DNA of 47,955 nucleotides from a virus: positions 1-47,955 of the IMG/VR virus record IMGVR_UViG_3300045988_175607; one strand, written 5' to 3'. Each line of letters starts with the position of its first letter. Within the stretch, counting starts at the first letter, position 1. Below, piece by piece: positions 8,666 through 25,926 of this stretch. The position numbers and the translations under genes were made by a program. Below the pieces are notes generated by a model. That model worked only from the letters and a program-made list of their open reading frames with translations. It was not told where the DNA came from and searched no databases.

Positions 8666-9847
8666 AAGAGATAGTCTGGCCCTTAACTACTTTTCCTAAG
8701 ACCATGGGGGTTGCGAGTTTTGCTCGCAGCTAACGAGGGAGTCTAAATCTTAAAAGTTTTGGTGAACTTTGGTTAATTCATAAAATTTAATTTTTATATA
8801 TAATAACAAAAGTTTTAAGACATGATAATCTCGTGGGAAAGGAAATATAATGAGCATAGGAATTTATAAATATTAGAATAAACTTAATAATAATATTTAT
8901 ATTGGTTAGAGTAGTAATATTGAAAAGCGATATTCATAGCATCTCTATGATTCTACTTATCGTCCAGAAAAAGGTACTGGGGTAGATATTGCTATTCATA
9001 AATATGGAATTGAAAATTTTACTTTTGAAATTATTGAAGAATGTTCTTTAGATGTTATCAATGAACGAGAAAAATATTGGATAAATTATTACGATTCATA
9101 TAACAATGGCTATAACAGAACTATTGGAGGAGACTCTTTAAAAGGGGAAAATCATCCGCGGGCCATTTTAACTGAACAAGAAGTATGGCTATTGCGTGAA
9201 GCTTATGGACAAGGTTTATAGAGAAATAAAGCTTTTAAACCTTTTTTGGAGCGAGGAATTTCTGAACGATGCCTTATAAAAGTTTGGAATTGTGAAACTT
9301 GGCCTAATGTTCATACTGACGTCTATACTAAAGAAAATAAAATATTGCACAAAAAACAAGTTGGACATAGTGAAGATTAGGTTGGATTATCTTCATATGA
9401 TAGAGCTATTAAACAAGAAGAAATTAATGCTTGGCTAAATGATTATAATCAAGGCATGACAATTAATGCGCTTTCAAAAAAATATAATCGTGATAATGGA
9501 ACAATAGAAAAATATATTGCTAATCCATAGGCAATTACAAAAGTAAAATATAAAGGCAGAACAATAAAAAATATTGAAACAGGGAAAATATTTAAATCTA
9601 TTAGTTCTGCTGCCAAATGGGCACAGTGTGGAGCAACAACATTAACGCGACATTTAGCTGGAGATAAAGTTGCTGGAATAGTGCCTGAATTATTAATTCC
9701 TGCTCATTGGGAAGAAATTTTCTAATCCTGTATCGACTATTCCCTTTGTAGGGAAGTACTGGTGTTATTGGTACACACTGGGAAACGGTAGTTTGCATTT
9801 TAATGCAAAAGAAATAGTCAGTACCATTAGAAATAATGGATTATACG
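8666..9847 (+). ncRNA. group I-type intron (family A) in gyrB with a GIY-YIG homing endonuclease ORF
   Basis: 5' exon ends in U, intron ends in G. 3' core cgactattccc...gggaag...aaagaaatagtcagtaccattagaaataatggattatacg is collinear with the nrdD intron 1 3' core. Splicing gives RNKG-L-GEQDSHELGECLLEP, matching GyrB RYKGLGEM...TMDP. Confidence 0.7.
8850..9725 (+). CDS. GIY-YIG homing endonuclease with C-terminal NUMOD/HTH modules; 6 in-frame TAG codons
   Basis: MSIGIYKY-Q-NKLNNNIYIG-Q-SSNIEKRYS-Q-HLYDS, ...GIENFTFEIIEEC...EREKYWI. The frame is open from 8850 to the TAA at 9723 only if TAG is sense. Confidence 0.75.
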
Positions 9848-14971: not shown

Positions 14972-14985
14972 TTAGTAATATAAAT

Positions 14986-15016
14986 AAAAAGGGGTAATTT
15001 TTACCCCTTTTTCTTT
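14986..15016 (+). terminator. rho-independent terminator
   Basis: ggggtaa-ttt-ttacccc followed by a T run. Confidence 0.8.
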
Positions 15017-15019
15017 TAT

Positions 15020-15988
15020 ATGCCTTTTTTATTTTGTATATTAGGACTATTTCTTGGCGGTTTAATTATTTACCTTATACTGTCACCAAAAGTTCAAAAG
15101 ACTTAGCAGTATAATTCAGATATTGAAAAACTAAATAATAGCTTATCAACTAAGAAATAGGATTTAGAAAATAATATAAAAGAGCTTCAGATTGGCGTAT
15201 CTTCACTCCAAACAAAGAAAAAAGAAATTGAATCAAGCATTTCTTCTTTGGAGCAACAAGCTACTCAATCTGGAGAAGTATTTTTAAAACAACAATTACA
15301 ACTTGCGAAAGAAAAATTAGATAATACTACTCGAATTTTAGAAAAAGCTTATCAAGATGCTGAAGAAGAGTACAAAGAAGAATATTTAGAAACTTTAAAG
15401 AATTATTCTAAAGAATTTTTAAATCTTGAAGAAAGCAATCAAAAAAAGCTTTTAGAGTTACAGACTCAAGTTGCAGAATATCAGGCTAAGGCGACTGCAG
15501 CTGCTGAGGCCGCAAAGCGCGAAGAAGAGAAACGATTAAATATAGATTTTTATCGTTGTATGCTTACTCCAGTAGACATAGAAGAAATTGCGGCAATACG
15601 TTCAGTAGCGCATTTATTGCGCGACCCCGAACCTATTAATAAAGTGATTTGGAAAGTTTATTATGAAAAACCTTATACTGATTTAATAGGGCGAGTAATT
15701 GGCTCAGGTGTTCATTGCGGCATTTATAAAATTACTAATATTGAAAATCAGAAGTGTTATATCGGCCAAGCGGCTAACCTAGCCGATCGATGGCGTTAGC
15801 ACATTAAACGCGGCATAGGGGCTGAGCCCGCCACGCGCAATAAGCTGTACCCCGCAATGCAAGAAATTGGAGTAGAAAATTTTACTTTTGAAGTAATAGA
15901 AGAGTGTGATCGTTCGCTTTTGGACGAACGAGAAGATTATTGGCAAGATTTTTATAAAGCAAAAGAATTTGGATATAGTATAAAATAA
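15020..15988 (+). CDS. membrane-anchored coiled-coil protein with C-terminal T5orf172/GIY-YIG-like nuclease domain (DUF4041-T5orf172 architecture); 3 TAG sense codons
   Basis: N-terminal TM segment LFCILGLFLGGLIIYLIL, long coiled coil, then GIYKITNIENQKCYIGQAANLADRWR-Q-HIKRG...ENFTFEVIEEC...EDYWQ. In-frame TAGs at 15104, 15158 and 15797. Confidence 0.6.
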
Positions 15989-18186: not shown

Positions 18187-18261
18187 ATGGGACTGAAAGA
18201 TATTAAGCCGCATCAGGTTAGTCGAAACTTGAAGGGATATTCTGTATTCTTTTATGGAGAG
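18187..18261 (+). CDS. Sak4-like RecA-fold ATPase, exon 1
   Basis: RBS aggag; MGLKDIKPHQVSRNLKGYSVFFYGE supplies the first half of Walker A (G-E + PKSGKTT). Confidence 0.6.
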
Positions 18262-18584
18262 AAGTAAAAAGGCTCTCCCTATATAGTAATATATAGTAAA
18301 AAACTCTTGGAAAAACAGGAAGGCTGTAAAATGCTAACCCGAGCGGAAGTTATTGAGTAACGTTGATAACACGCGCAACGCATAGGTTTGAAACTTAATC
18401 TTAATTAAGAATATAAATTTAACCCACGAGCCAAGGGCGCCTATCTTGTTAAAGATAGGATGAAGAGATATGCTGAACCAGATTGGAATTGACTAATCAA
18501 TATTTAAAGATTATACCACGTCTTTAGAGAATGAAGGAAACTTCTGGAATTAAAGGATAAAAAGCCTTTAAGATAACAAATATG
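18262..18584 (+). ncRNA. ORF-less group I-type intron (family B) in the Sak4-like gene
   Basis: Family-B core elements ggaaggctg...atgctaacccgagcggaag, gcaacgcatag, cccacgagcc, agatatgctgaac, hairpin taaagg-ataaaaag-ccttta, 3' end gataacaaatatg. The joined product gives a canonical Walker A GEPKSGKTT. Confidence 0.6.
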
Positions 18585-18872
18585 CCAAAAAGTGGTAAAA
18601 CAACTATTGCAACCCGCTTCCCGCGGGCATTGCTTCTAGCCTTTGAAAAAGGATATAATGCACTCCCTGGGGTCATGGCTCAGCCCATAAATAGCTGGGG
18701 TGACTTCAAGAAAGCTCTCACAGAGTTGAGAGACCCGGACGTACAGTCCATGTTCGAGACCGTGATTCTCGACACCGCGGACATCGCATACAGCTACTGC
18801 GAGAAGTACATCTGCAGTCGTGAAAGCGATCAGAAGAATACTTACGAAACTGTTGCTGATATACCTTACGGT
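18585..18872 (+). CDS. Sak4-like ATPase, exon 2
   Basis: PKSGKTTIATRFPRALLLAFEKGY...DTADIAYSY...ADIPYG. Confidence 0.65.
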
Positions 18873-19954
18873 AAAATCTTTGCCGCTTATTAATGGTAAC
18901 ATTAATCAGAAAATCGTAGTAAAAAACTGGAACTCTGAAATGGGAATCAGAGCGGAAGGTCAGGTTTAAAAGCCTTACCACGCACAACGCATAGAAAAAT
19001 TAAACATTAGAGGAGGATTGCCTCGGCATGGGGAAATCAATAAAATTAACATTAGAGCAGGAACAACAGATAATTTATAATTATACTGTTTTAAAACAGG
19101 GCCAAAAAAAAGCGGGAGCTTTTATTCCGGTAAGTGATCATATTGTTAAAAAAGTTTTAAATAAACACAATATTCCTATTAAAACTCTTCAAGAAACTAA
19201 TGCCAATAAATATTATATTAATCATGATTTTTTTAAGGTACAAAATGAAGATATGGCTTATTGGTTAGGAATTTTAGGTTCTGATGGTTGTATTAGTTCT
19301 ATGGAAAATCAAATTTATATAGAATTGCAACGACAAGATAAAGAACTTTTAGAAAAATTAAATGCAATTATAGAGAATCAGCGCCCCGTTAAAGATTATG
19401 AAACCGCTCGAGGTTATGAAAACAGTAAATTATATTTTTATTCTAAAGAAATAAAAAATGATTTAGCTCAATATCATATAATACCTAATAAAACTTATAA
19501 TCCAGAGTATCGTTTTCCAGAAAAATTAAAGTCTCAATATATTAAAGATTATATTAGAGGATTGTTTGATGGAGATGGAAGTATTAAACAAGGGACTTCA
19601 ATTACTTGGCAAGTTGATACAGGTTCTTATGATATTGCAAAAAAAATTGTTGAATTTTTTGCAAAATATGATATTGAATTACAAATTTCTTTTTTACCCA
19701 AAAAAAATGTAACTATATATAGGGTATATGGTTATACTAAACAAAAAGTTCAAAAAATTTATAATTTACTTTATAATACACAGTCAACACTTTATCTAAG
19801 ACGTAAAAAAGAAAAATTTGAAGAACTCCTTAAATGATATAGTTTTCCACGAGACTACGACATCTTATGCATTAAGATGAAAAGATATGCTGAACTTATA
19901 CGAATAAAAAGTATAAGAACTAAAAGATAAAAAGCTTTTAGGATAACAAAATTG
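18873..19954 (+). ncRNA. group I-type intron (family B) with a LAGLIDADG homing endonuclease ORF
   Basis: 5' aaaatctttgccgc..., cagagcggaagg, gcaacgcatag; 3' ttccacgagact, agatatgctgaac, hairpin cttatac/gtataag, hairpin taaaag-ataaaaag-ctttta, gataacaaaattg then exon. Confidence 0.65.
19028..19837 (+). CDS. LAGLIDADG homing endonuclease (two motifs)
   Basis: WLGILGSDGCIS and IRGLFDGDGSIKQ. Confidence 0.8.
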   Translation: MGKSIKLTLEQEQQIIYNYTVLKQGQKKAGAFIPVSDHIVKKVLNKHNIPIKTLQETNANKYYINHDFFKVQNEDMAYWLGILGSDGCISSMENQIYIELQRQDKELLEKLNAIIENQRPVKDYETARGYENSKLYFYSKEIKNDLAQYHIIPNKTYNPEYRFPEKLKSQYIKDYIRGLFDGDGSIKQGTSITWQVDTGSYDIAKKIVEFFAKYDIELQISFLPKKNVTIYRVYGYTKQKVQKIYNLLYNTQSTLYLRRKKEKFEELLK

Positions 19955-20578
19955 AAAGGTTATACAATGGCGCAGGATGAGTTTGACACATGCATCCGTA
20001 AAATTCTCCAGTTGAATTATGGTCTTGTTCTTATTAGCCATTCGACTGAAAAGACTTTTACTAATGAAAAGGGCCAAGAGGTATCAAAGATAGTGCCTAC
20101 TCTTGATAAGCGCGCTCGCCTTGTCTGCGAGAGAACTTGTGATATAATAGGTTATTCTCGTTCTATCGATACCGATGATGGTAATAAGACTATTTTGTTT
20201 ATGCGTGGCACCCCTCGCTTTGTTGCAGGCAGCCGCTTCCGCTTCACTCCTGATTTTATTGAGTTTTCTTATGATAACTTGGTAAATGCAATTGCGGAGG
20301 CCATAGACAAGGAAGCCGCAGCTTCAAACGGTACTCTTGTTACTGATGAAAAGACTCAGGTAGTAAGTCAGGAAGAGACTTATGATTTTGAAGCTCTTAT
20401 GAAAGAGTTCCAAGATCTGGTTGGTATTCTGATGCAGAAAGATCAGGGCAATGCTATAAAGATTACTCAAATTGTTGATAAACATTTGGGTAAGGGCAAG
20501 AAGGTTGGCGATTGTACTGCCGAACAGGCTGCAATTATTGATCTTATAGTTCATGATATAAAGGCTCTGAATAAGTAA
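19955..20578 (+). CDS. Sak4-like ATPase, exon 3
   Basis: KGYTMAQDEF...LVLISHSTEK...continues the RecA-fold core; frame open from the intron end. Confidence 0.65.
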   Translation, partial: KGYTMAQDEFDTCIRKILQLNYGLVLISHSTEKTFTNEKGQEVSKIVPTLDKRARLVCERTCDIIGYSRSIDTDDGNKTILFMRGTPRFVAGSRFRFTPDFIEFSYDNLVNAIAEAIDKEAAASNGTLVTDEKTQVVSQEETYDFEALMKEFQDLVGILMQKDQGNAIKITQIVDKHLGKGKKVGDCTAEQAAIIDLIVHDIKALNK

Positions 20579-23075: not shown

Positions 23076-24182
23076 ATGTTAGTCTTTGATAAACATGAAA
23101 TAAAAAATTCTTTATCAACTGAAGACATTTTTAACTTATTACAAGAGTGGGGGGGAGAGCCGGAGTATACCTCTTTCGGCATTATCTCCTCTACTATTTG
23201 TCATAATTTGCCCGGTGAAGGCAGTCGAAAATTATATTTTTATGAGAATAGTGGATTATTTAAATGTTATACTGAATGCGATTCCACTTTTGATATATTT
23301 GAATTAACGATTAAAGTTGCATCAATTCAAGCAAGCAAAGTTTTTGATCTAAATGATGCTGTTCGCTATATAGCTTATAAAATGGGTTTAAGCGGACGTG
23401 AAGAATCTTCTGAGCAAACTGAAATTCCAGAAGATTGGAAATTTTTGGCCAATTATGATAGAATTAATGCAATTAAAATTAATAATAAAACTACAATTGA
23501 ATTAAAACCTTATAATGAAAATATTTTAACACATTTTAACTATGACGTTAAATTAACGCCTTGGTTAAAAGAAAATATTTCGCAAAAAGTATTAAAGGAA
23601 TGCCACATTGGTTTTTATCCAGGAGGAGATCAAATAACCATTCCTCATTATAATATTAATGGGGAGTTTGTCGGTTTGCGCGGTCGCGCAATGTGTAAAG
23701 ATGAATGCGAAAGATATGGAAAATATCGTCCATTAAATATAAACGGTACTCTTTACACTCATCCTCTTGGAATGAACCTTTATAATTTAAATTTAAGCAA
23801 AGAAAATATTCAAAATAGCAAAACCGCAATTATATTTGAATCTGAAAAGTCTTGTTTAAAAATGCGATCTTATTTTGGGCCTGAAAGCGATATTTCTGTA
23901 GCATGTTGTGGCAGTAGCCTTTCAGTTCATCAGATGGATTTACTTTTGGACTTAGGTGTTAATGAAGTTATCATTGCATTTGATAGACAATTTCAAACAA
24001 TTGGAGACAAAGAATTTAAGCATTTGACTACGAATTTAACCAAGCTATATAATAAATATAAAAATTTAACTTCTATTTCTTTTATTTTTGATAAGGAAAT
24101 GATAACAAATTATAAAGATAGCCCAATTGATTGCGGCAAAGATATATTTTTACATTTATTAGATGAAAGGATTAGTTTATGA
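23076..24182 (+). CDS. dnaG: DNA primase (DnaG-like: CHC2 zinc finger plus TOPRIM)
   Basis: CHNLPGEGSRKLYF...CYTECD zinc finger; TOPRIM IIFESEKS...VIIAFDRQ. Confidence 0.8.
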   Translation: MLVFDKHEIKNSLSTEDIFNLLQEWGGEPEYTSFGIISSTICHNLPGEGSRKLYFYENSGLFKCYTECDSTFDIFELTIKVASIQASKVFDLNDAVRYIAYKMGLSGREESSEQTEIPEDWKFLANYDRINAIKINNKTTIELKPYNENILTHFNYDVKLTPWLKENISQKVLKECHIGFYPGGDQITIPHYNINGEFVGLRGRAMCKDECERYGKYRPLNINGTLYTHPLGMNLYNLNLSKENIQNSKTAIIFESEKSCLKMRSYFGPESDISVACCGSSLSVHQMDLLLDLGVNEVIIAFDRQFQTIGDKEFKHLTTNLTKLYNKYKNLTSISFIFDKEMITNYKDSPIDCGKDIFLHLLDERISL

Positions 24183-24187
24183 AGTAA

Positions 24188-25926
24188 TGGAATATCAATT
24201 AATAGCACCAAGAAATAAATAGTATGCCGCGATTGAACAAGTTTTAATTAATCGAGGCATTTCTCCTTAGAATATATCTCATTATTTACGAACCAGTGAA
24301 GAAGATAATTTAAACCCTTCATCTATAATGAATATGCATGAAGGTGCAGTTATGTTAATTCAACATGTTATAAATAATGACCCCATCTTTGTGACCGTAG
24401 ACTCAGATTGTGACGGCTATACATCTGCGGCTACATTAATGAATTATTTAAACATGGCTTTTCCTTATTATACTGCACATTATGTTTCATATGCAATGCA
24501 TAAAGGGAAACAGCATGGCGTTAATTTAGATTATGTTCCAAAAGGAACTAAATTAGCAATAATACCTGATGCTGGCAGTAACCAATATGAAGAGCATAAA
24601 ATATTAAAAGAACAGGGTATTGATGTTTTAGTTATTGACCATCATATTGCTGAAAAAGTATCTGAATATGCTTGTGTAATTAATAATCAACTTTGCGATT
24701 ATCCAACAAAATCATTATCCGGCGTTGGTATGGTTTATAAGTTTTGTTCTTATATTGATAGTTTAATGGGGCAGCATTTTGCAGAAGAGCTTGCCGATTT
24801 AGTGGCTTTAGGTTTAGTGGCAGATATGATGGATTTGCGCGATCTTGAAACGCGCTATCTTATTACAAAAGGAATCCAAAATGTAAAAAACCCTTTTATG
24901 AAAGCTATGACTGAAAAGCAAGAATATTCAATTTCTAAAGCTGGTGGTCTTTGCCCTTTTTCAATAGCTTTTTATATTGCACCTTTAGTAAATGCAGTAA
25001 CTCGCACTGGCACTCAAGAAGATAAAGAGCTTTTATTTAAAAGCATGTTAGATGCTTATGCTTATAAAAAAGTTCCTTCTACTAAGCGAGGTTGCAAGGG
25101 GCAAGAGGAAACAATAGTTGAACAAGCTGTACGAATGTGCGGTAATGTTAAAAATCATCAAACTAAAATACAAGATGAATGTGTTGCGTTAATTGAAGAT
25201 ATTATTCAAGAAGAACAATTATTAAATAATAAACTTTTAATTATCCCTTTAGATAAAGAAAGCACAATGGATTCTAATTTAACGGGCTTAATTGCAAATA
25301 AATTAATGGCTAAATATCAACGTCCAGTTGCTATTTTAAATGAAAGAATTTCTCCAGAAGGAAAAATAACTTATGAAGGCAGCGGTCGTGGCTATGATAA
25401 ATCTAAATTAAAAGATTTCAGAGGGTTTGTGCGGGATTCAGGTCTTGCGCTTTATGCAGAGGGACATGAAAATGCTTTCGGACTAGGGTTCACGCGAGAA
25501 AGCCTACCGTAGTTTATTCAATATTCTAACGATGTTTTAAAAGATTTCGATTTTTCACCATGTTATCTTGTTGATTTTATTTACAATGAAAATTTTATTA
25601 ATTGTGAAGAAATTTTAGACATAGCTCGTTGGTATGATTTATGGGGTCAAAAAATGGATGAGCCATTAATTTGTTTGCAAAGAATAAAAGTTAATAAAAA
25701 TAATGTTGATTTAATGGCTAAAGGCACATTAAAAATAACTATAAATGATGACTTAACAGTTATTAAATTTGGTTCTAATGAAGAAGAATATGCTAATCTT
25801 TGTCCTGAAGTTGGCTATCAAATAATTAATATTATCGGAAAATGTAGTTTTAATAATTATACTGATAAAGCGCAAATTAAATTAGTTGATTATGAAATTG
25901 TTGATAATATGAGGTATTATTTTTAA
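24188..25926 (+). CDS. recJ: RecJ-like DHH/DHHA1 ssDNA exonuclease; full length only with 3 TAG codons read as sense
   Basis: N-terminal AIEQVLINRGIS-Q-NISHYL...DSDCDGYTSAA, DHH (VIDHHI); after the TAG at 25510 the frame continues 138 codons through an OB-fold-like C-terminus to the TAA at 25924. Confidence 0.75.

What the first reader, a model, noticed from the sequence alone, without database searches (positions are those of the whole stretch)
18466..18584. Four-copy intron 3' module with compensatory base changes: AGAUAUGCYGAAC, hairpin 1, then a hairpin with an invariant AUAAAAAG loop, then G(R)UAACAA(R)WUUG at the splice site
Copies at 18466-18584, 19876-19954, 40457-40524 and minus-strand 43731-43800. 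The second hairpin stem covaries while its loop is invariant: taaagg/ccttta, taaaag/ctttta, taagag/ctctta, ggataaa/tttatcc. Hairpin 1 also changes sequence but keeps pairing (cttatac/gtataag, cttata/tataag, ctatcac/gtgatag, plus a long insert in copy 1). Upstream shared elements (CGGAAGG, GCAACGCAUAG, UCCACGAG) confirm one intron lineage (family B) in four genes. In the one junction anchored by protein homology (dut ANSVG|IIDADY) the exon starts right after the terminal G.
Basis: seen in the sequence. Interest (0 to 1): 0.7.

Follow-up and report, generated by a model that had tools for sequence, protein, structure and literature searches.

The report
Group I intron 3' ends, four copies
The four repeats are the 3'-terminal domains of four related self-splicing group I introns that interrupt three genes of a phage; this intron lineage is real, common in phages of Bacillota and already annotated in a few cultured phages, so the finding is correct but ordinary.

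Summary
The same module occurs four times: J8/7-P7' (AGAUAUGCYGAAC), hairpin 1, hairpin 2 with loop AUAAAAAG, and a G(R)UAACA...UUG tail. A covariance model finds no fifth copy. The hairpins are real RNA helices. In 105 modules (3 from the window, 102 from IMG/VR), 94% of cells pair and 13 of 14 pairs show compensatory changes.

The modules are the 3' domains (P7', P9.0, P9, P9.1, omega-G) of subgroup IA group I introns. A 66-sequence core alignment supports P3, P4, P5, P6/6a, P7, P7.1, P8, P9 and P9.1, including the P3/P7 pseudoknot. Splice junctions are fixed by protein homology, by an intron-less allele in a close relative, and by P1/P10 pairing.

The four introns sit in three genes, not four: two in a Sak4-like ATPase, one in dUTPase and one in a late gene. 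Three carry unrelated homing endonuclease genes.

The lineage is known. The JCL1032 terminase intron and the AR9 gyrase introns are annotated members, and 161 GenBank phage records match.

Points of modest interest:
- Rfam RF00028 misses the lineage (13-17 bits against a threshold of 50).
- The L9.1 loop is almost invariant (RYAAAAAR).
- L9 and P5 co-vary as modules.
- Intron 1 has G-C instead of the near-universal U.G at its 5' splice site.

The parts
18262..18584 (+). Intron copy 1 (323 nt, no ORF) in the Sak4-like AAA_24 ATPase gene, between exons 18187-18261 and 18585-18872. Helices: P1 18256-18261 with IGS 18273-18278; P10 18271-18272 with 18585-18586; P2 18279-18296; P3 18304-18310; P4-P5 18316-18341; P6/6a 18343-18374; J6/7+P7 18375-18384; P7.1 18385-18424; CACGAG 18425-18430; P3' 18431-18437; P8 18440-18459.
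   Evidence: The junction FYGE|PKSGKTT is identical to Enterococcus phage VRE9_4 Sak4. The intron-less allele L326 reads GGGGAG|CCAAAAAG. Helix coordinates come and the core covariation.
18460..18584 (+). 3' module of copy 1: J8/7 18460-18468; P7' 18469-18474; J7/9 GAA 18475-18477; branched P9 18478-18547 (three hairpins, the last capped by GAAA); P9.1 18550-18571 (loop AUAAAAAG 18557-18564); tail GAUAACAAAUAUG 18572-18584, with omega-G at 18584.
   Evidence: MFE of the P9 insert -14.2 kcal/mol, three-hairpin junction.
18873..19954 (+). Intron copy 2 (1082 nt) in the same ATPase gene, between exons 18585-18872 and 19955-20578. A LAGLIDADG homing endonuclease ORF (19028-19837) sits in the P7.1 loop. 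P1 is CGGU 18869-18872 with GCCG 18882-18885; P10 is UUU 18879-18881 with AAA 19955-19957.
   Evidence: Junction PYG|KGY and the intron-less allele. Pfam LAGLIDADG_3, E 8e-10. Coordinates.
19880..19954 (+). 3' module of copy 2: J8/7 19880-19885; P7' 19886-19891; P9 19895-19917; P9.1 19920-19941 (loop 19927-19934); tail 19942-19954, with omega-G at 19954.
   Evidence: (85.2 bits).
39064..40524 (+). Intron copy 3 (1461 nt) in the dUTPase gene, between exons 38722-39063 and 40525-40728. An endonuclease-like ORF (39168-40283) with 6 in-frame TAG codons lies in the P1 loop. P1 is GUCGGU 39058-39063 with GCCGAC 40290-40295. The core runs 40302-40461.
   Evidence: Junction ANSVG|IIDADY; the Pfam dUTPase match spans it. 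The weak Rfam RF00028 alignment assigns P3-P7. Coordinates.
40450..40524 (+). 3' module of copy 3: J8/7 40450-40455; P7' UAUGCC 40456-40461; P9 40465-40487; P9.1 40490-40511 (loop 40497-40504); tail 40512-40524, with omega-G at 40524.
   Evidence: (79.5 bits).
43731..44527 (-). Intron copy 4 (797 nt) in a Gly/Asn-rich late gene with no Pfam match, between exons 44624-44528 and 43730-43030. An HNH/NUMOD (I-HmuI-like) endonuclease ORF (44367-43882) sits in the P7.1 loop. P1 is CUUGGU 44533-44528 with GCCAAG; P10 is AAUCU with GGAUU.
   Evidence: ORF continuity ..GAW|W-IIILF. Pfam HNH_3/NUMOD. The same insertion site is used in L006, L067 and L264. Coordinates.
43731..43804 (-). 3' module of copy 4: J8/7 43804-43799; P7' 43798-43793; P9 43789-43768; P9.1 43765-43744 (loop AUAAAAAG 43757-43750); tail 43743-43731, with omega-G at 43731.
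   Evidence: (86.2 bits).

Best explanation
Each copy is the 3'-terminal domain of a subgroup IA group I self-splicing intron.

Assignment of the module:
- AAAAGA(UA) is J8/7.
- UAUGC plus the next Y is the 3' strand of P7, the guanosine-binding helix. It pairs with R-bulge-GCAUA in the 'GCAACGCAUAG' element.
- GAA is J7/9. Its two A's can pair with the UU before omega-G to form P9.0.
- Hairpin 1 is P9. Its loop docks on P5.
- Hairpin 2 is P9.1. Its A-rich 8-nt loop (RYAAAAAR) most likely makes a peripheral tertiary contact that braces the core.
- GAUAACA...UUG is the single-stranded 3' tail. It ends in omega-G, which occupies the P7 G-site in the second step of splicing.
- The 3' exon pairs with the internal guide sequence (P10).

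Shown here: the helices, the pseudoknotted core topology, the splice junctions, P1/P10 complementarity and the L9/P5 module co-variation. Inferred: actual self-splicing, the role of P9.0, and the partner and role of the L9.1 loop.

The introns spread by homing. Three of the four carry unrelated endonuclease genes in peripheral loops, and a close relative of the phage has intron-less alleles.
For: Hairpins: 94% paired, 13 of 14 pairs with compensatory changes in 105 modules.

Whole core, 66 sequences: P3, P4, P5, P6, P6a, P7, P7.1, P8, P9 and P9.1 are 93% paired. 46 of 55 pairs show double changes, and the covariation score is 0.632 against at most 0.131 for slid controls.

The extra P7 pair switches A-U to G-C without exception: AU 40 and GC 26. 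GCAAC always goes with GCUG (93/93) and GCAGA always with GCCG (30/30).

The weak RF00028 alignments place the elements exactly as P3-P4-P5-P6-J6/7-P7...P3'-P8-J8/7-P7'.

The layout of the 3' domain equals that of the Twort orf142 IA2 introns: GAUAUAGUCUGAAC - P9(GAAA) - AAG - P9.1 - GUAACAUAAUUG.

Junctions: protein homology, an intron-less allele at 97% amino-acid identity, and P1 and P10 in all four copies (read from the sequence).

L9/P5 co-variation: the 6-nt L5 UGARAU goes with the 8-10-nt L9 GAAnnnAA in 36 of 37 cases. A P5 extension starting UAAR, including canonical CCUAAG..UAUGG receptors, goes with an L9 GAAA tetraloop in 23 of 23.

Homing endonuclease genes: LAGLIDADG, HNH/NUMOD and a third type.

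Annotated members of the same lineage: JCL1032 terL (joined CDS) and AR9 gyrA (joined CDS).
Against: - No splicing data exist for this phage.
- Rfam RF00028 scores only 13.6 and 17.1 bits (threshold 50), and there is no hit in gathering mode.
- Copy 1 lacks the U.G wobble at the 5' splice site (G-C instead), which is expected to impair the first step.
- The P7 core pairs and P9.0 are invariant, so they are not tested by covariation.
- The family alignments were gathered with patterns that fixed P7' and, for most sequences, the L9.1 loop. Conservation of those two strings is therefore partly by construction.
Confidence: 0.93

Rival explanations
1. The four modules are remnants of introns that no longer self-splice, so the host genes are either broken or need a trans factor. 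This applies above all to copy 1, which has G-C instead of U.G at the 5' splice site.
For: Copy 1 ends its 5' exon in G. No splicing data are available. Copy 1 carries no endonuclease gene.
Against: All core helices of all four copies are intact and fit the family model.

The G(-1) site, with identical P1 and P10, is kept in three independent metagenome assemblies. One of these (L350) has a diverged core with compensatory P3/P3' changes and a homing endonuclease gene.

The exons keep a 97% identical, full-length ATPase reading frame.
Confidence: 0.05
2. The repeats are stand-alone regulatory or structural hairpin elements (terminators, REP-like repeats or protein-binding sites) and not parts of introns.
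For: There are two adjacent hairpins, and an A/T-rich context.
Against: Each copy lies exactly at the point where a conserved protein reading frame resumes. Each is preceded at a fixed distance by P8, P3', P7.1 and P7, with long-range covariation to upstream strands. There is no T-run after the hairpins. The module is found in more than 200 distinct introns elsewhere.
Confidence: 0.01
3. They belong to another intron or ribozyme class (group II, or a new class) rather than group I.
For: There is no Rfam hit at the gathering threshold.
Against: The helix order, the P3/P7 pseudoknot, the J8/7 AAGAUAU motif, the bulged P7, the terminal G, P1/P10 and the Twort-like layout are all group I features. 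There is no GUGYG start and no domain V.
Confidence: 0.01

Closest known systems
Lactobacillus phage JCL1032 terminase-large-subunit intron and Bacillus phage AR9/PBS1 gyrase introns (annotated as joined CDS in GenBank)
   Same: These belong to the same lineage. JCL1032 has GAGCAUAG - P7.1 (UGAA..AUAUAAU) - CCACGAG - P3' - P8 - AAAAUAUAUGCCGAAC - P9 - P9.1 with loop AUAAAAAG - CGAUAACA..AUG. The AR9 introns carry the GGAUAAAAAGCC hairpin.
   Different: They sit in other host genes and other phages. AR9 has an extra segment between P7' and P9. Sequence identity to the window copies is only about 70-77%.
Staphylococcus phage Twort orf142 introns (subgroup IA2; crystal structure of I2, cited in bioRxiv 10.1101/2021.08.11.455951)
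   Same: Both have the J6/7 GCAAC + P7, extra helices between P7 and P3', the UGAAC joiner, P9 with a GAAA loop, P9.1 with an 8-9-nt A-rich loop, a (G)UAACA..UUG tail and a GNRA L2.
   Different: - Twort P7 is GACUA/UAGUC; here it is GCAUA/UAUGC.
- Twort has P7.1 plus P7.2 and ACUCGAAAU; here there is a single P7.1 (sometimes with a nested P7.1a) and CCA(C/A)GAG.
- L9.1 is AGUAACGAA in Twort and AUAAAAAG here.
- Twort scores 64-101 bits with RF00028, whereas this lineage is not detected.
Phage T4 td / nrdB / nrdD (sunY) group IA2 introns
   Same: These are phage group I introns in nucleotide-metabolism genes, mobile through homing endonucleases, with a P9-P9.x 3' extension ending GAACAUAAUG (from memory). 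A sunY-like intron with a 33-nt stretch identical to T4 is present in this same window.
   Different: The core sequence family is different (canonical GACUA/UAGUC, P7.1/P7.2).
Streptococcus thermophilus phage 2972-type terminase intron
   Same: It has the same 3' layout, CCACGAA before P3', and P9.1 with an A-rich loop AUAAAGAG.
   Different: It has the canonical P7 GACUA/UAGUC and a longer P7.1/7.2 region. It was annotated as two separate terminase ORFs.

Membership tests
Group I intron | Conserved core helices P3-P8, P4-P6 and P7 in the canonical order, with the P3/P7 pseudoknot | tested here: met
   66-sequence alignment: 93% of cells paired, 46 of 55 pairs with compensatory changes, every helix supported.
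Group I intron | P7 guanosine-binding helix with a bulged nucleotide, flanked by J6/7 and J8/7 (S element AAGAUAU) | tested here: met
   R-bulge-GCAUA pairs with UAUGC-Y. The outer pair is A-U in 40 sequences and G-C in 26, with no exception, and 123 of 123 in the wider set. The five inner pairs are invariant and so untested.
Group I intron | Terminal G (omega-G) immediately before the 3' exon | tested here: met
   All four copies: 18584, 19954, 40524 and 43731, fixed by protein homology and the intron-less allele.
Group I intron | P1 formed by the 5' exon and the internal guide sequence, with a U.G wobble at the splice site; P10 with the 3' exon | tested here: inconclusive
   P1 and P10 are present in all four copies. 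U.G is present in copies 2, 3 and 4. Copy 1 has G-C: the IGS GG|CUCUCC pairs with 3'-exon CC and 5'-exon GGAGAG.
Group I intron | Rfam RF00028 gathering score (50 bits) | tested here: not met
   13.6 and 17.1 bits for copies 1 and 3. No hit in gathering mode. 15 compact family members and AR9 also went undetected, while the Twort controls scored 64-101 bits. This reflects the model's coverage, not the fold.
Group I intron | Guanosine-dependent self-splicing | not testable with these tools
   Needs in vitro transcription and splicing, or RNA from infected cells.
Subgroup IA | Extra helix or helices (P7.1, with P7.1a or P7.2) between P7 and P3' | tested here: met
   P7.1 is 99.4% paired, with 4 of 5 pairs compensatory. 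Longer forms carry a nested hairpin, and the endonuclease ORFs of copies 2 and 4 sit there. No separate P7.2 was seen, so the choice between IA1 and IA2 is left open.
Mobile (homing) intron | Intron-encoded homing endonuclease, and intron-plus and intron-minus alleles of the same site | tested here: met
   LAGLIDADG and HNH/NUMOD ORFs and a third endonuclease-like ORF. Both ATPase sites are empty in relative L326. Endonuclease activity was not tested.

The most novel reading that the evidence does not exclude
This lineage may be an unrecognised and very abundant subclass of IA group I introns in phages of Bacillota. Its marks are P7 GCAUA/UAUGC, a single P7.1 with a UGAA...AUAUAAU loop, CCA(C/A)GAG, and L9.1 RYAAAAAR. 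Standard annotation (Rfam) systematically misses it. On this reading, its nearly invariant L9.1 loop makes a tertiary contact not yet described, and one member (window copy 1 and its relatives) splices with a G-C pair in place of the near-universal U.G wobble at the 5' splice site.
Probability: 0.25. Interest if true: 0.5.

Novelty: new member of a known kind. Interest (0 to 1): 0.3.

Why it matters
The practical value is for annotation. Three genes of this phage (a Sak4-like ATPase, dUTPase and a late gene) are read correctly only after the four introns are removed. The same lineage splits terminase, tape-measure, ribonucleotide reductase and other genes in hundreds of viral and bacterial contigs.

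Rfam's group I model does not reach threshold on it, so gene callers report fragments. The R1 model and the core alignment made here could be used to find these introns.

For RNA biology there are three testable points:
- The two alternative L9/P5 docking modules.
- The almost invariant A-rich L9.1 loop.
- An intron kept in several phages without the U.G wobble.

None of this changes what is known about how group I introns work.

Tried and rejected
- Rfam at gathering threshold on the whole window gave no hit. In E-value mode on the whole window it gave only noise. Only short stretches gave weak RF00028 alignments.
- A megablast of 18 kb against GenBank phages found no close relative.
- I looked for a partner of the L9.1 loop by testing its variants against J7.1/3 (C/A), the P7' type and the L7.1 type. 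No association was found. The loop is too invariant for covariation, and no complementary U-rich element exists in the core.
- I considered an alternative 5' splice site for copy 1 (UUUUAU|GG with GUAAAA as guide). It was rejected because it would shorten the Walker A loop and contradicts the intron-less allele.
- A literature search for the sequence strings found nothing relevant. The Twort structure paper is not in the library.
- An exact search of IMG/VR for copy 1's P1-P2 gave 0 hits. A degenerate search of metagenomes gave 3.
- About half of the genome contigs pattern hits and about half of the 15-mer IMG/VR hits were chance matches without the module, and were discarded.

Full report
**Observation.** The module consists of AGAUAUGCYGAAC, a first hairpin, a second hairpin with loop AUAAAAAG, and a tail G(R)UAACA..UUG. 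I built a covariance model (R1) from 105 modules and ran it over the window with filters off. It returned the three copies that were in its training set at 79.5-86.2 bits. Copy 1 was not in the training set. It came back in two pieces (39.3 bits, E 1e-5, and 22.7 bits) because its first hairpin carries a branched insertion. Nothing else scored above 18.3 bits (E 0.16). There are therefore exactly four copies.

**Are the hairpins real?** Four sequences are too few to decide this, so I scanned IMG/VR with GATATGCYGAAC-N(22-50)-ATAAAAAG. In the resulting 105-sequence alignment (A2), 94.0% of cells form standard pairs and 13 of 14 pairs show changes on both sides. The covariation score is 0.718, against 0.04-0.15 when the 3' partners are slid by 1-3 columns, and no shuffle out of 500 reached the observed value. 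The stems were not part of the search pattern, so this is an independent test. The flanking strings and the loop were fixed by the pattern. A second scan anchored only on AAAGATATGCTGAAC showed what the loop looks like without that constraint. AUAAAAAG is the majority, with AUAAAAAA in 17, ACAAAAAG in 3 and GUAAAAAG in 1, giving RYAAAAAR.

**What it is.** Short-stretch Rfam searches gave weak alignments to RF00028 (13.6 and 17.1 bits; threshold 50). These place the upstream elements as P3-P4-P5-P6-J6/7-P7 and the module's start as J8/7-P7'. I tested that assignment on a 66-sequence alignment of whole cores (A3). It contains window copy 3, copies 2 and 4 with their ORFs cut out, and 63 compact IMG/VR introns. 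I wrote the structure with P3 and P7 as a pseudoknot.
- Overall, 93.0% of cells pair, 46 of 55 pairs have compensatory changes, and the score is 0.632 against at most 0.131 for slid controls.
- Each helix is supported: P3 95%, P4/P5 96%, P6 85%, P6a 88%, P7.1 99%, P8 82%, P9 93% and P9.1 96%.
- The five inner P7 pairs (GCAUA/UAUGC) never vary.
- The outer P7 pair, separated by a one-base bulge as in other group I introns, is A-U in 40 sequences and G-C in 26, with no exception.
- In the wider set of 201 distinct family members, GCAAC always goes with GCUG (93/93) and GCAGA always with GCCG (30/30).

A hairpin (P7.1) lies between P7 and P3', which is the mark of subgroup IA. The 3' domain has the same layout as the Twort orf142 introns, which are subgroup IA2 (bioRxiv 10.1101/2021.08.11.455951). 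That layout is P7'-UGAAC-P9(GAAA)-AAG-P9.1 (8-9-nt A-rich loop)-(G)UAACA..UUG.
- AAAAGA(UA) = J8/7
- UAUGC-Y = P7'
- GAA = J7/9, with a possible P9.0 to the UU before omega-G
- hairpin 1 = P9
- hairpin 2 = P9.1
- terminal G = omega-G

**Splice junctions and host genes.** Copies 1 and 2 both interrupt one gene, a Sak4-like AAA_24 ATPase (Pfam E 3e-40). The spliced protein aligns end to end with the Enterococcus phage VRE9_4 protein, and the sequence is identical across junction 1 (FYGE|PKSGKTT). A close relative in IMG/VR (L326; 97% amino-acid and 90% nucleotide identity) has the gene uninterrupted. It reads GGGGAG|CCAAAAAG and TACGGC|AAAGGG at the two sites. Copy 3 interrupts dUTPase at ANSVG|IIDADY, and the Pfam match spans the junction. 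Copy 4 interrupts a Gly/Asn-rich late gene on the minus strand. There the frame is restored as ..GAW|W-IIILF, and the same site is occupied in other contigs. All four introns have a P1 and a P10 that fit these junctions. The lineage therefore sits in three genes, not four.

**Endonuclease genes.**
- Copy 2 carries a LAGLIDADG ORF in the P7.1 loop.
- Copy 4 carries an HNH/NUMOD ORF in the P7.1 loop.
- Copy 3 carries a third, unrelated endonuclease-like ORF in the P1 loop. It has only a weak, sub-threshold DUF5889 match.
- Copy 1 carries none.

**How the module works.** Group I chemistry is established knowledge. P7 binds exogenous G and then omega-G, and P9 and P9.x are peripheral braces. Two steps get support from the data here. 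First, P7' pairs with the upstream GCAUA element, as shown by the covariation above. Second, the P9 loop interacts with P5, because the two elements co-vary as modules. A 6-nt L5 UGARAU goes with an 8-10-nt L9 GAAnnnAA in 36 of 37 sequences. A P5 extension starting UAAR goes with an L9 GAAA tetraloop in 23 of 23; in several members this extension is the canonical 11-nt receptor CCUAAG..UAUGG. Copy 1's enlarged P9 folds into three hairpins, the last capped by GAAA. The role of the almost invariant L9.1 loop is inferred only. It is probably an A-minor type contact with an invariant part of the core. I found no complementary sequence, and no association of the rare loop variants with other variable positions.

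**Comparison with what is known.** The lineage is not new.
- The terminase intron of Lactobacillus phage JCL1032 is annotated as a joined CDS. It has the same GAGCAUAG, P7.1 loop, CCACGAG, AUAUGCCGAAC, P9, P9.1 with AUAAAAAG, and tail.
- The two AR9 gyrase introns, also a joined CDS, carry the GGAUAAAAAGCC hairpin.
- A consensus query matches 161 GenBank phage records: Streptococcus, Staphylococcus, Bacillus, Clostridium and Clostridioides phages and a crAss-like phage.
- About 60 genuine modules were found in bacterial genomes, mainly Bacillaceae, Selenomonadales and Clostridia. In Bacillaceae they sit inside a ribonucleotide reductase-like gene.
- Earlier work placed prophage introns of the Bacillus cereus group that resemble a JCL1032 intron (there the tape-measure gene) in subclasses IA1 or IA2 (PMC2504315). 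Recent work notes that phage IA introns are heterogeneous and poorly covered by the Rfam and GISSD models (PMC11878797).
- I confirmed that coverage gap. RF00028 finds the three Twort introns at 64-101 bits, but none of 15 compact family members and not AR9.

**Unusual detail.** Copy 1 ends its 5' exon in G, not U. The guide sequence GG|CUCUCC pairs without interruption with 3'-exon CC plus 5'-exon GGAGAG, so a G-C pair replaces the U.G wobble at the cleavage site. This is not an assembly error. Three independent metagenome contigs have the same P1. One of them (L350) has a diverged core with compensatory P3/P3' changes, an endonuclease ORF and the same G|CCAAAAAG 3' junction. Whether this intron splices efficiently cannot be decided here.

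**Verdict.** These are new members of a known kind, namely phage subgroup IA group I introns. Interest is modest and lies in the Rfam blind spot, the L9/P5 module co-variation, the invariant L9.1 loop and the wobble-less copy 1.

Noticed in passing
18256-18278 and 18585-18586 (window); L348, L349, L350: Intron copy 1 has G instead of U as the last 5'-exon base. The guide GG|CUCUCC pairs contiguously with 3'-exon CC and 5'-exon GGAGAG, giving G-C in place of the U.G wobble. The same P1 is kept in three metagenome contigs, one of which has a diverged core and an endonuclease ORF. The intron-less allele reads GGGGAG|CCAAAAAG.
   Followed up: partly
about 34590-35100 (+), nrdD region: A second, canonical IA2 intron family is present. 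GACTATCCCTGATGAATGTAAGGGAGTAGGGT (34994-35026) is 100% identical over 33 nt to the phage T4 nrdD (sunY) region, with AGATATAGTC at 35076. An ORF lies inside at about 34629-34976.
   Followed up: partly
4855, 8667, 9810 (+) and ORFs 5359-6306, 8829-9725, 14984-15988, 24106-25926: There are further S-element-like strings (AGATATAGTCAG, AGAGATAGTCTG, AGAAATAGTCAG) near endonuclease-like ORFs. The 48-kb window probably holds eight or more group I introns.
   Followed up: no
whole window; minus-strand genes 41800-47955; ORFs 39168-40283, 8829-9725: In-frame TAG codons occur in the late genes and in several intron ORFs, and once in dUTPase. Most plus-strand early genes have none. This pattern suggests a phage with TAG recoded to an amino acid.
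   Followed up: no
IMG/VR loci, e.g. L003, L006, L010 (P7.1 loop); window 40399-40412: The P7.1 loop UGAAAAGAUAUAAU of many family members repeats the J8/7-P7' string UGAAAAGAUAUGCU over 11 bases. The reason is unknown.
   Followed up: no
alignment A3, columns 41-75 and 283-292: Two alternative L9/P5 module pairs co-vary. UGARAU goes with GAAnnnAA (36/37). A UAAR-type, 11-nt-receptor-like P5 extension goes with a GAAA tetraloop (23/23).
   Followed up: yes
L326 (IMGVR_UViG_3300045988_177309), L264 (Clostridium sp. SUG910 MAG, 175 kb), L350 (OLGE01000017.1, 174 kb): Close relatives of the window's phage are contigs of about 160-175 kb. One is binned with a Clostridium MAG. The relatives differ in which intron sites are occupied, and both ATPase sites are empty in L326.
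   Followed up: partly
L325 (Streptococcus phage 2972, record positions 2119-2404): The terminase large subunit is annotated as two separate ORFs flanking a sister-lineage group I intron (P7 GACUA/UAGUC, L9.1 AUAAAGAG). The intron itself is not annotated in that record.
   Followed up: no
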